A stretch of 7,990 bases of DNA from Octopus sinensis. Lineage: Eukaryota. Below are positions 140 through 7,990 of the stretch, in pieces. How positions within the stretch are numbered: position 1 is the stretch's first letter; every line of letters begins with the position of its first letter. Made by a program: the position numbers and the translations under genes. Location of the stretch: the NCBI RefSeq assembly GCF_006345805.1, contig NW_021828622.1, positions 1-7,990 on the forward strand, in the 5' to 3' direction. The notes under the pieces are model-generated. The model did no database searches, was not told the origin of the DNA, and saw nothing but the letters and a program-made list of their open reading frames with translations.

Positions 140-160
140 TATATATATATATATATATAT
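140..160. repeat. (TA)n microsatellite
   Basis: About 10 perfect TA units directly left of the repeated unit that starts at 165. Confidence 0.95.
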
Positions 161-164
161 CTAT

Positions 165-303
165 ATCGTGGAGTATATTTGCCACCTAAATGTGGCTGCC
201 CCATATGGGGCGATGCTACTGTAGTTTATAGCCCCAGGAAGACATCTCCTCCAGCTGGCTAACGACACACTGTCTGTGCCCGATTAGTATTTGCGAAGGG
301 AAA
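165..303. repeat. Direct repeat copy 1 (139 bp)
   Basis: ATCGTGGAGTATATTTGCCACC...TTTGCGAAGGGAAA aligns by hand to 498-635 with about 10 substitutions and 1 gap (~92% identity). Confidence 0.95.
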
Positions 304-334
304 TCATCGTTCTCATCTCTAGCCTGACGTGATA

Positions 335-379
335 CACACGGATCCAGGTTTCTGAGTAGTAACCCGTAATCAGCGTGTG
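335..379 (-). ncRNA. Type I minimal hammerhead ribozyme, mutated core (probably inactive copy)
   Basis: Minus strand reads CACACG-CUGAUUA-CGGGU(UACU)ACUCA-GAAA-CCUGGA-UC-CGUGUG: 6-bp stem I, CUGANGA box with G8>U, 4-bp stem II with tetraloop, GAAA, short near-palindromic stem III, and a UC cleavage site between 341 and 340. Confidence 0.7.
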
Positions 380-497
380 ACAATCGCCAGCTAGCGATGA
401 GAAGTGATTTTGCAGTGATAAAAAGTGGCTGATCTCGAAAAAGGAAAAACAAGCAATAATAAATCTCTGAACGAGATATAAACAGTAGCAGCACGAC

Positions 498-635
498 ATC
501 GTGAAGTATATTTGCCACCTAAATGTGGCCTCCCATATGGGACGATGCTACTGTAGATTATCGCCACTGGAAGACACCTCCTCCAGCTGGCTAACGACAC
601 ACTGTCTGTGCCCGATCAGTATTTGCGAAGGGAAA
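498..635. repeat. Direct repeat copy 2 (138 bp)
   Basis: ATCGTGAAGTATATTTGCCACC...TTTGCGAAGGGAAA; second copy of 165-303. Confidence 0.95.
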
Positions 636-793
636 AAGCATATAGTTATGGCGTATGGTTGGTTAGAATGTTGCTCTCGGTTTCATGTCGAATAATAATG
701 CTTTTAGAAAGGTAACATTCTAACAAGTTATATGGTCGACGATATATATAAAAATATAACTACTCCCTTACTCATATTAAGTTTTTTTTTCTG

Positions 794-3840: not shown

Positions 3841-4850
3841 CTACAGGCGCATGCATAGAATAGGCTCATTTACTCGGGTCACTCTCGTTACATTCACCTA
3901 CTTTTCAACGATTTTACAGAGGAATAGTGCCTCCTTCTCCTACCCCTCAATTTCTTTTCTAAGAGGAACCTGAAAAAGTTGATGAGAGCTTGACCGAACA
4001 GGAAAGTACCTATCTTCACCACATCAGCTCTTTCGTCATAATCCTCAGACAGAAGAAAACTGCTTACCCTTCCCGGTCAAAAGAAGGTGGCTAGGTGATC
4101 ATCACGCTGGAGTCGGCCGATAGCCAGGTCCGTCATACATGCGACAGTTGGTATTCGACATAACTCCACAAGTCAGCAATGCCCAGTCAATGAGTGACTT
4201 CTCCATCGTGCAGTCCGTCATCGTTGTCCGTATTCCGTCATTTATTATCGGCCTTTCACGGAACTCCACATCCTCAACGAGAGTTACAGCAGGCCGCGAG
4301 GTGGGCTGTAAAGTCCACCACCGTCTTCGGTCCACGTCCTCTCCAAATAGTTATGTGAGGTGCTACTGAAAAACCGCATACTTCTGCTTGGAATAGAGTA
4401 GCATGCACCCCTCCCGATCTGCCAAAGACCGAATTTTTGCCTTGCTACCGCGTTGCGCCGCTACCACCGGGTCTATCGAATGGATTTTGTTCCCACATGT
4501 TTTAGAGCACGCATCCTTTCTCTGACAAAGCAATCTTCGCGCTTAGTATGGAAGCATCGATCAAAGGCAAATCTTACCATACTTCTAAGTGCCTATTCTA
4601 GGTTACTAAGAAGTTCACCCTCTACTCTAGAATTCTCTACCGTTATTCACTTCTAAACATTATCGATTCGAATCATATAGCTCTTTTCTGGGCTAATCAT
4701 CGTCGGTTGACCCTATTGACGCATACTCTCTCCTAATTAGTTCTCTGATCCAATCTCTATAAACTTAGCGAACCGGGAAAGACGTGTTCAGTTTCCAGTA
4801 ACCAGGTTCATAGGCAGAGACCTATCCAGGGACTTAACTCTATCTAGGTC
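3841..4850 (-). pseudogene. Tx1-type ORF2 remnant (endonuclease end, linker, C-terminal domain; RT core absent)
   Basis: LDRV (4847-4836); GYWKLNTS (4803-4780, an L1/Tx1 hallmark); FVRERMRAL..QRGSKAKIRSLAD..VFQ*HLT*LFG; ERPIINDGIRTTMTDCTMEKSL (cf. EGPITxxEIxxAxxxxxxGKSPG); then directly IADLWSYVE..AVFFCL..KELMW..LINFFRFLLEKK; stop at 3843-3841. Many stops and frameshifts. Confidence 0.75.
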
Positions 4851-5824: not shown

Positions 5825-5950
5825 CTTTGTTTGTCGTTTTCGTTATTGATGTTATTGCGGTTTCTGTTGCTGCTGCTGCCGCTGTAGTTGTTTTGATCAT
5901 CGTTGTTGCTACAACCACCACTTCCGCTGCTGCTCTGCTGCTGTTGTTGG
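5825..5950. repeat. Degenerate (TTG/CTG)n trinucleotide low-complexity tract
   Basis: Mixed GTT/GCT/GAT triplets; the tract resumes on the other side of the SINE. Confidence 0.8.
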
Positions 5951-5952
5951 AA

Positions 5953-6333
5953 GCACTCCGTCGGTTACGACGATGAGGGTTACGGTTGATCCGAATCAAC
6001 GGAACAGCCTGCTCGTGAAATTAACGTGCAAGTGGCCGAGCACTCCACAGACACGTGCACCCCTAACGCAGTTCTCGGGGATATTCAGCGTGACACAGAG
6101 AGTGACAAGGCCGGCCCCTTGAAATACAGGTACAACAGAAACAGGAAGTAAGAGTGAGAGAAAGTTGTGGTGAAAGAGTACAGCAGGGATCACCACCATC
6201 CCCTGGAGCCGGAGCCTCGTGGAGCTTTTAGGTGTTTTCGCTCAATAAACACTCACAACGCCCGGTCTGGGAATCGAAACCGCGATCCTATGACCGCGAG
6301 TCCGCTGCCCTAACCACTGGGCCATAGCGCCTC
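5953..6333 (-). mobile_element. Full-length tRNA-derived SINE (~380 bp), second family
   Basis: Minus-strand head GAGGCGCTATGGCCCAGTGGTTAGGGCAGCGGACTCGCGGTCATAGGATCGCGGTTTCGATTCCCAGACC with A box TGGCCCAGTGG (6324-6314) and B box GTTTCGATTCC (6280-6270); CpG-rich body; CAA-type tail; candidate TSD TGCTGTTGTT at 5939-5948 and 6335-6344. Resembles abundant octopus SINEs from memory. Confidence 0.88.
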
Positions 6334-6334
6334 T

Positions 6335-6570
6335 TGCTGTTGTTATTGTTAAGTGGTTACTTTTGCCATTGTTATTGTTGCTGCTCCTGTTACTGCTGAT
6401 GCTCTTGTTATTGATATTGCTATATTCGTTTGCCGCCAAAGCAGTTGGACTTTGAATCGTCATAACAGAAGTTTTCTCCTCCTTTTCAGTGCACTTCACG
6501 TTGTTAATGTTGTTATTGCTGTTGTTGTAGTTGTTGATGTCATCGCCGTCGTCGTTGTTGTTGTTGTTGT
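6335..6570. repeat. Degenerate (TTG)n-type low-complexity tract
   Basis: GTT/GCT/GTC triplet runs; accounts for the poly-V, poly-T and poly-N ORFs. Confidence 0.8.
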
Positions 6571-6856: not shown

Positions 6857-6965
<109 letters not shown>

Positions 6966-7750
6966 TTGTTATTGTTGTTGTTTATTCGACATTTGATAGT
7001 TCAGGCAAATTTCTGCTGCATCACATATTACAACTCCGTGCTAGTGTGTTCTTGGAGTTTTTTTCTTTCTTTTTTTTTTTGAGATAGTGGGAGTACAAAC
7101 TCTTCCTGATATTGCATTGAATAATTTGTTTTGTTATGGGGTTTGGGCTTGCGTCTTTGTGTGCATTAGTGTTTATATTGTGTTGTGTGCTGCGTGTGCA
7201 ACGTGAGTTTTGTTCTTCTGTTGGATATCCGACCATGTAGAATACATGTTGCGGAAGTTCTTTATTTCATTAGACATTTACTGTACAGAGTGTGTCTTGT
7301 GTTTCTGGATTGTCATATTTGGGTCGTATTATTGAATTGATAGTGTTCTTGCGTAGGATGTGGGCTGTTCCTAGCAGGGTTATCTTTTGAATAATGTTAG
7401 AGTTGAGGATACAGTATATATTCTACGCTTCCTGGTTATACGTTTCTTTTAAAATCATGCTCAATATCCAATTACAACTGGTATTCTTTTCACTTTCATA
7501 CCCACATCTTTATAACTTCAATTTCAAGGTTTTTTGCACTTAGACAATTTCTTCACTTCTTTTGAGCAATATTTTGATCAGAAGGAACCGCAACGTCTAT
7601 TAGCAAGCAAGCTATTTTTATTTATTTTATCATCCCCCCCCCCCAATCCTATTATTATCTCTGGCGATTAAATTTTATTCGTTTGTCGGTTTGAACAGGT
7701 ATAGCTCAAATGATTGTGGCCTGGGCGTTATCATGTACCTTGTTTAGCAC
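6966..7750 (-). mobile_element. 3' part of an RLE-type non-LTR retrotransposon (R4/Dong/NeSL-like), degraded
   Basis: Minus-strand translation across frameshifts: KVHDNAQATII*AIPVQTDKRIKFN(R)PEIII..CLLIDVAVPSDQNIAQ(K)EVKKLSKCKNLEIEVIKMW(G)MKVKRIPVVIG..IQKITLLGTAHILRK(T)LSIQ* (stop 7331-7329), a restriction-like endonuclease of the PD..D..K..KY type. Assigning 7328 to ~6966 as 3' UTR is tentative. Confidence 0.85.
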
Positions 7751-7761
7751 ACGTTTATACC

Positions 7762-7982
7762 GTTTCTTATTTCTTTATTGCCCACAAGGGGCTAAACATA
7801 GAGCGGACAAACAAGGACAGACAAAGGGATTAAGTCGACCCCAGTGCATAACTGTACTTATTCAATCGAACCCGAAAGGATGAAAGGCAAAGTCGACCTC
7901 GGCGGAATTTGAACTTAGAGCGGCAGACGAAATACCGCTAAGCATCTCGCCCAGCGTGCTACGTTTCTGCCAGCTCGCCGCC
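7762..7982 (-). mobile_element. Young tRNA-derived SINE (~220 bp) with a Meta-domain-like core
   Basis: Head GGCGGCGAGCTGGCAGAAACG; B box GTTCAAATTCC (7914-7904); core GTCGACTTTGCCTTTCATCCTTTCGGGTTCGAT; tail ...CTTGTGGGCAATAAAGAAATAAGAAAC. Two older homologues lie in this window. The Meta-domain resemblance is from memory. Confidence 0.88.
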
Positions 7983-7990
7983 TTCCACGT

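What the first reader, a model, noticed from the sequence alone, without database searches (positions are those of the whole stretch)
165..635. Candidate retrozyme: Type I minimal hammerhead inside a 333-bp non-coding unit with a terminal direct repeat
Seen: the minus strand at 379-335 has full hammerhead topology (stem I CACACG/CGUGUG, CUGAUUA, stem II GGGU/ACUC, GAAA, ACCUGG(A)U, C17), and the unit is present in about 1.4 tandem copies. Departures from consensus are few and look like decay: G8>U (368), a C.A mismatch at the base of stem II that a CpG>TpG change at 353-354 would explain, and one extra or changed A in the palindromic stem III. Known: animal non-LTR retrozymes and Penelope pLTRs carry minimal Type I hammerheads with palindromic stem III that can act as dimers, and retrozymes yield circular RNAs. 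Inference: this is an insertion of a ~333-nt circular-RNA retroelement family, copied more than once around the circle, possibly mobilised by Penelope-like RT. I do not know whether the family has been described.
Basis: partly seen in the sequence, partly recalled or inferred. Interest (0 to 1): 0.75.

Follow-up and report, generated by a model that had tools for sequence, protein, structure and literature searches.

The report
Hammerhead retrozyme family with Penelope ends
This is a damaged copy of a short, very abundant jumping repeat whose intact copies carry a hammerhead motif predicted to cut its own RNA; its ends match those left by Penelope-type transposons, so it is likely copied by their enzyme, possibly from an RNA circle, and a second transposon repeatedly inserts at its predicted transcription start.

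Summary
The hammerhead and the 1.4-unit repeat are real. The window holds a decayed copy of a dispersed non-coding family (unit 352-357 nt; 333 here because of a private 23-nt deletion). Most copies have the intact core; 274 exact intact-core sites occur in the genome (control 0), and the stems covary across subfamilies. The motif is a canonical animal type I hammerhead, not a minimal one. The C.A mismatch is family-wide, and there is no extra A. Copies have Penelope-type ends: two fixed 3' ends about 45 nt apart, variable 5' ends, inverted arms and (TA)n flanks. No copy was found as the pLTR of an RT ORF. Multi-hammerhead arrays exist (up to five, 99% identical). Cleavage, circles and expression are untested. 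This scan noted that LINE targeting before in another genome. The window copy has lost G8, the helix III pair and the promoter spacing, so it is likely dead.

The parts
140..164 (.). (TA)n microsatellite flank at the element's 3' end; no target duplication seen
   Evidence: 91 of 134 distinct family loci have a TA run within 25 nt on at least one side (no control run)
165..497 (-). One full unit (333 nt; family 352-357 nt); 165 is the tail-less fixed 3' end
329..387 (-). Type I hammerhead: helix I 379-374/340-335 with extension 387-383/333-329, core 373-367, helix II 365-362/357-354, GAAA 352-349, palindromic helix III 348-343; predicted cut 341/340; damaged at 368 (G8), 346 and 343
396..398 (-). 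Predicted transcription start (398) and, in other copies, the LINE insertion site; empty in this copy
   Evidence: the start itself is inferred
412..413 (.). Site of a private 23-nt deletion between the promoter-like box and the predicted start
   Evidence: alignment with L002 and L006
428..433 (-). ATCAG[TC] box shared with U2 snRNA upstream regions; at -35 here against -58 to -64 in other copies
452..497 (-). Segment that forms the optional ~45-nt Penelope-type tail at the 3' end of other copies
498..635 (-). Second, 5'-truncated unit (0.4 unit, no hammerhead)
631..646 (+). 16-nt inverted snippet of the unit at the 5' junction; it overlaps the segment deleted at 412/413, so the template likely still had that segment
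   Evidence: exact 15-16-nt matches to L185, L189, L192

Best explanation
The window holds a decayed, 5'-truncated 1.4-unit copy of a dispersed non-coding hammerhead repeat family (a non-LTR retrozyme) that is likely inserted by the reverse transcriptase and GIY-YIG endonuclease of a Penelope-like element. Inferred cycle: a master array with two or more units is transcribed from an internal U2-type promoter starting about 25 nt before a hammerhead. Successive hammerheads cut, probably as dimers through the palindromic helix III, to give a ~355-nt monomer that is likely ligated into a circle. The Penelope enzyme nicks (TA)n DNA, starts copying at one of two internal sites about 45 nt apart, and stops anywhere, often after more than one unit and often with an inverted second arm. 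This copy is predicted to be dead. An L1/Tx1-type LINE inserts site-specifically at the predicted start of these units. Shown: family, structure conservation, end pattern, arrays, promoter-like box, LINE site and duplications. Inferred: transcription start, cleavage, dimer, circle (about 0.55 on its own) and the identity of the mobiliser.
For: Copy number: 4175 first-look candidates, 40 scored; 369 exact 22-mer sites, control 0; 274 exact intact-core sites, control 0. Core conservation in 96 copies: G8 86, G12 95, A14 96. Pairing 88.3% against 13.7-50.1% in slid controls, and 102 double-change cells against a shuffled mean of 35.9. 3' ends: 104 of 124 pieces at two sites; 63 of 84 hammerhead-anchored runs at two distances. 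34 of 81 loci carry both orientations. These match the PLE tail and inversion described in 10.1101/2021.04.23.441226 and the two RT start sites in PMC11167929. One insertion holds five hammerheads at 353-nt spacing, with 347-351 of about 351 positions identical in the four units compared, and PLE-type ends. One insertion joins unit sequence directly to the 3' part of an RT/GIY-YIG ORF (L411/L429). Box at -57 to -61 in 19 of 20 U2 loci, 0 of 20 U6 loci and -58 to -64 in 14 of 17 units; background 0.37% per 8-nt window. 37 of 57 LINE 3' ends are followed by a hammerhead unit (classes set by eye); exact 9-20-bp duplications in 13 of 20 loci fetched.
Against: No autonomous element sharing the unit's sequence was found. 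There is no RNA evidence. 5' ends do not pile up at the cut site (8 of 124 within 171-182, like neighbouring bins), which fits circles but equally uncut tandem transcripts; in PMC11167929 hammerhead cleavage was not needed for insertion in vitro. Two-hammerhead runs are rare: 0 in 81 loci of the window's subfamily sample and 3 of 84 intact-core runs. The number of pairs with double changes (10) did not exceed the shuffles (285 of 500 as high), and related copies inflate the other measures. The helix II base pair is a mismatch in 70 of 96 copies. In five copies folded, the monomer's minimum-energy structure kept helix I but was not the active core fold. The PLE chimera is a single case. The promoter box is only 6 nt and the U2 loci are paralogues.
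Confidence: 0.78

Rival explanations
1. Same element and mobiliser but no circle: the Penelope enzyme copies uncut linear read-through transcripts of tandem master arrays, and the hammerhead has another or a later role.
For: PMC11167929: unprocessed RNA is the main substrate in vitro and no reads ended at the cut site. No pile-up of 5' ends at the cut site. Arrays exist as possible templates. Only 1 of 9 frog dimers cleaved in 10.64898/2026.07.22.740005.
Against: Core and stems are kept across subfamilies about 75% identical. A 4.6-unit insertion has near-identical units. Mussel retrozymes of the same size give circles (PMC7229834).
Confidence: 0.35
2. The unit is the pLTR of an autonomous Penelope-like element, and the copies are its 5'-truncated insertions.
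For: All PLE end hallmarks are present. PLE ORF fragments lay within about 1.5 kb of 9 of 148, 3 of 30 and 2 of 58 unit loci (the sets overlap in part).
Against: Upstream of one unit lies another unit, not ORF, in the tandem runs. In the seven ORF-adjacent loci read by eye microsatellite or unrelated DNA separates unit and ORF; the eighth (L411) is an inverted chimera. 1 of 36 GIY-YIG loci held a unit. None of 30 loci and none of 6 further long loci of that PLE family did, apart from one 35-nt match; that family has a different hammerhead in its own 3' UTR.
Confidence: 0.1
3. The unit is mobilised by, or is the 3' end of, the L1/Tx1-type LINE it adjoins.
For: Four loci of the window's family share a LINE ORF2 3' end joined to the unit.
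Against: The unit continues on the LINE's 5' side with a target duplication, so the LINE is inserted into it. The unit's own ends lack such duplications and show PLE tails.
Confidence: 0.04
4. A locally amplified satellite or chance duplication with a fortuitous motif.
For: Rfam gives no hammerhead hit.
Against: Dispersed on many large contigs with unrelated flanks; conserved core and covariation; 0 of 300 shuffles give the motif.
Confidence: 0.02

Closest known systems
Animal non-LTR retrozymes (mussel, coral, axolotl; PMC7229834, seen: passages and section 14; 10.64898/2026.07.22.740005, seen: parts 1-3 of 5, which hold the main text; supplements not seen)
   Same: Non-coding ~350-nt low-GC unit with a canonical type I hammerhead, thousands of copies, tandem arrays, PLEs in the same genome. 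A mismatch at the base of helix II is also reported for one axolotl ribozyme.
   Different: Mostly dispersed inserts of under two units with PLE tails and inverted arms; no matching PLE pLTR found; a U2-like promoter box and a LINE target site, neither seen in the parts read; cleavage and circles untested here.
Penelope-like elements and their pLTR hammerheads (PMC4209133, seen: parts 1-2 of 4; PMC11167929, parts 1-2 of 4; 10.1101/2021.04.23.441226, passages)
   Same: Tail on one end, 5' truncation, inverted arm, partial tandems, AT-rich targets, hammerhead in sense with the 3' end.
   Different: No ORF; the tail is about 42-46 nt against the 30-40 reported; the hammerhead has a helix III and a 4-bp helix II, unlike min-HHRs.
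Target-specific Tx1-clade LINEs: Tx1 in Tx1D, Keno in U2, Tx1-Mar (PMC4494074, seen: passages and section 15)
   Same: Zinc-knuckle ORF1; AP endonuclease, RT and zf-RVT in ORF2; insertion at a fixed site in a multicopy element with target duplications; one copy sits at a U2 gene.
   Different: The target is the predicted start of hammerhead retrozymes, not among the targets listed in the passages read; Tx1 membership was not tested by phylogeny.

Membership tests
Non-LTR retrozyme | Type I hammerhead with intact core | tested here: met
   Met for the family; the window copy is damaged at G8 and at pair 15.2-16.2
Non-LTR retrozyme | 150-450-bp unit, GC under 50%, non-coding | tested here: met
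   352-357 nt; GC 0.42 over 1-500; one 100-aa stop-to-stop frame and no PLE or LINE protein match in the unit
Non-LTR retrozyme | [quoted passage not shown] | tested here: met
   3 of 84 intact-core runs; five hammerheads in L430; these belong to sister subfamilies
Non-LTR retrozyme | At least two complete hammerheads in the window copy | tested here: not met
   One damaged hammerhead; 0 of 81 loci in the window-subfamily sample had two
Non-LTR retrozyme | Self-cleavage | not testable with these tools
   Needs in vitro transcription
Non-LTR retrozyme | Expressed as linear and circular monomer RNA | tested here: inconclusive
   No run on record as RNA, and contigs only
min-HHR of metazoan PLEs | Helix III/loop 3 absent or minimal, long helix II, short helix I | tested here: not met
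   Helix I 6 bp plus extension, helix II 4 bp, helix III with a palindromic 4-nt loop (definition)
Canonical metazoan type I hammerhead | Helix I 6 bp, helix II 4 bp, helix III 1-2 bp with palindromic loop | tested here: met
Canonical metazoan type I hammerhead | Loop 1-loop 2 tertiary contacts | not tested
   An internal loop in helix I is conserved; contacts were not assessed
Autonomous PLE pLTR | Contiguous with an RT/GIY-YIG ORF | tested here: not met
   sampled loci only, one chimeric exception
PLE-type insertion | Tail on one end, 5' truncation, inverted arm | tested here: met
Tx1-clade target-specific LINE (the inserting element) | ORF1 zinc knuckle; ORF2 AP endonuclease, RT, zf-RVT | tested here: met
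Tx1-clade target-specific LINE (the inserting element) | More than 20% of flanks in one target (criterion of PMC4494074), with duplications | tested here: met
   24 of 30 and 13 of 27 in two samples; duplications in 13 of 20
Tx1-clade target-specific LINE (the inserting element) | RT groups with named Tx1 elements | not tested
   No named Tx1 among the 120 homologues listed; the clade name rests on architecture and recall

The most novel reading that the evidence does not exclude
A three-tier parasitism: a superfamily of hammerhead retrozymes, transcribed from a U2-type promoter and copied from RNA circles by Penelope enzymes without sharing a pLTR, is itself the specific target of an L1/Tx1-type LINE lineage. 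The LINE inserts at the +1 of these units and of U2 genes, gaining an upstream promoter and a downstream self-cutting site, while the retrozyme subfamilies diverge at the target.
Probability: 0.45. Interest if true: 0.68.

Novelty: new member of a known kind. Interest (0 to 1): 0.48.

Why it matters
How animal retrozymes are transcribed and which enzyme inserts them is open in PMC7229834 and in the 2026 preprint, which argue for Penelope-like elements from co-occurrence and pLTR similarity. Here the inserts themselves carry the two-site tail signature that PMC11167929 ties to Penelope reverse transcriptase. There is also a candidate partner family, a defined promoter box and young intact arrays, so each step can be tested. 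The LINE that targets the predicted start adds a hammerhead element to the targets of site-specific LINEs. The window copy itself is an ordinary dead insertion.

Tried and rejected
Rfam scans found no hammerhead in the window or in three intact-core loci. Expression: no RNA holder was listed; the contig-only layings cannot show strand, ends or circles. A pile-up of 5' ends at the cut site, suggested by L002, was not borne out. A pile-up of 5' ends at the predicted start could not be judged, because diverged subfamilies stop aligning to the two reference units there. The Neptune/Nematis-type PLE next to L056 was rejected as a sequence partner; no similarity was found between the unit and the UTRs or bodies of three PLE families. 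The genome-wide pattern for LINE 3' junctions was too loose (538 hits, control 257). The LINE tree had unsettled bootstraps and long branches from decayed copies; targets cluster by LINE subfamily, but co-evolution is not claimed. The protein atlas gave no result. Print searches showed no description of this family or of a LINE targeting a retrozyme. PMC13282606 (passages) has no occurrence of ribozyme, hammerhead or retrozyme in its main text; PMC8869645 (passages) only lists general target classes. Repbase, Dfam, subscription journals and all supplements were not seen, so an entry for the family may exist.

Full report
Observation. The window has a direct repeat 165-303 / 498-635 with period 332-333 and 92-93% identity, next to a (TA)n run. 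The minus strand at 379-335 has hammerhead topology as described. A descriptor with one core mismatch hits once in the window and in 0 of 300 shuffles. The unit folds well (z -5.82), but the damaged motif folds as a rod. Rfam does not detect it or intact copies. The host genome is 2.72 Gb; the named homologues of an associated LINE come from cephalopods, so the host is likely a cephalopod.

Family. The unit gave 4175 candidates, of which 40 were scored, at 78-93% identity. One 22-mer occurs exactly 369 times and an intact-core pattern 274 times, with controls of 0. A young sister subfamily, about 75% identical to the window's, has copies 95-98% alike. Tandem periods are mostly 350-358 nt; the window lost 23 nt at 412/413.

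Ribozyme. In 96 aligned copies (chosen from 128 extracted, leaving out mainly gapped or partial rows) the core is conserved: C3 89, G8 86, G12 95, A14 96, U16.1 94, C17 81. Of all cells 88.3% pair, against 13.7-50.1% in slid controls; double-change cells number 102 against 35.9 in shuffles, but the count of pairs with double changes does not beat the shuffles. The helix III loop stays palindromic through double changes (19 and 6 copies at its two pairs). The base of helix II is unpaired in 70 of 96 copies, so the C.A is ancestral to this subfamily. The window copy differs from the majority at G8, in the loop (346) and at 16.2 (343). By PMC4209133 this is the canonical animal type I form, thought to act as a dimer. 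G8 changes abolish activity in a PLE hammerhead (PMC11167929; that test was G8C, not G8U).

Ends. In 81 loci sampled by a 22-mer, 104 of 124 pieces have their 3' end at one of two sites about 45 nt apart, 34 loci carry both orientations and 5' ends are spread, with 8 of 124 near the cut site. In an independent hammerhead-anchored sample 63 of 84 runs end at the same two distances. 91 of 134 loci have a TA run at a flank (no control). This is the PLE pattern of tail, truncation and inversion, and the tail equals the span between two RT start sites in vitro. The window copy is a tail-less end with a 16-nt inverted snippet at 631-646.

No autonomous parent found. PLE ORF fragments lie near 9 of 148, 3 of 30 and 2 of 58 unit loci (partly overlapping sets). 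Seven read by eye are separated from the unit by microsatellite or other DNA; the rest were judged by distance only. In one, L411, the inverted arm runs from unit sequence straight into the 3' part of an RT/GIY-YIG ORF. I read this as a template switch by a PLE enzyme, on one example. Conversely, 1 of 36 GIY-YIG loci and none of 36 loci of the neighbouring PLE family hold the unit, apart from a 35-nt match. Only a small part of the PLEs was sampled.

Masters and circles. Three of 84 intact-core runs have two or more hammerheads. One has five at 353-nt spacing, near-identical, inside PLE-type ends. Many inserts cross the cut site without a pile-up, so the template was either a ligated circle or uncut tandem RNA. 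Conservation of the ribozyme and the mussel precedent favour circles; PMC11167929 favours uncut RNA. Sequencing runs could not decide.

LINE target and promoter. Four loci shared a LINE 3' end joined to the unit just 5' of the hammerhead. The unit continues on the LINE's other side with a duplication. Of 57 distinct LINE 3' ends, 37 are followed by a hammerhead unit, their core lying 18-36 nt beyond the LINE end, from six unit families by my reading; 6 are followed by only a short unit-like start and 14 by other sequence. The first 30 were selected by likeness to a unit-targeting copy (24 hits), the other 27 by protein (13 hits). Exact duplications of 9-20 bp were found in 13 of 20 loci extended upstream. 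An intact relative has a 481-aa zinc-knuckle ORF and an 1181-aa endonuclease-RT ORF. I found this targeting before consulting earlier notes; notes on another genome reported the same and proposed that the site is a transcription start. I tested that lead: ATCAG[TC] lies at -57 to -61 in 19 of 20 U2 loci, the twentieth having this LINE's 3' end at +1; it is absent from 20 U6 loci and lies at -58 to -64 in 14 of 17 units, against a background of 0.37%. In the window the deletion moves it to -35. That newt satellite 2 uses an snRNA-type promoter is recalled and comes from no call.

Verdict. A new member of the animal non-LTR retrozymes, in effect a non-autonomous Penelope-type element, represented here by a dead copy. 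The family-level evidence on mobiliser, promoter and LINE parasite is the valuable part. I did not find it in ten print searches, and repeat databases were not available.

Noticed in passing
window 3948-4186 (-): Decayed fragment of the same LINE lineage that targets the units (41-46% amino-acid identity); not adjacent to a unit here.
   Followed up: no
window about 5900-6400 and 7700-7990: Two other abundant repeats, SINE-like by recall, found in up to 26 and 65 of the fetched loci.
   Followed up: no
window 6859-6960: (GTA)n directly followed by (CTA)n, a near-perfect microsatellite palindrome that gives spurious microRNA hits.
   Followed up: no
L406:600-745 (-), also L266 and L425: A non-coding element ending like the LINE sits at the same target region in 3 of 84 intact-core runs; possibly a SINE mobilised by the LINE.
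   Followed up: partly
L349 (U2 gene at 1501): The LINE's 3' end abuts +1 of a U2 gene.
   Followed up: partly
L201, L204, L214, L217; L202, L206, L215, L219; L223, L246: Further hammerhead unit families with different palindromic helix III sequences, seen only downstream of LINE insertions.
   Followed up: partly
L056:2690-2750 (-), L062:4632 (+): A young Neptune/Nematis-type PLE family (at least 150 matches, many 99% identical) has its own hammerhead-like motif in the 3' UTR.
   Followed up: partly
L226, L233, L234, L249: One young LINE subfamily forms head-to-tail arrays about 5.3 kb apart and has a different, unidentified target.
   Followed up: no
L358-L369: A tandem array of divergent U6-like genes at 1.1-2.5-kb spacing.
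   Followed up: no
L058:674-2110 (+), L069: A PLE family with a separate 479-aa ORF upstream of the RT/GIY-YIG ORF.
   Followed up: no
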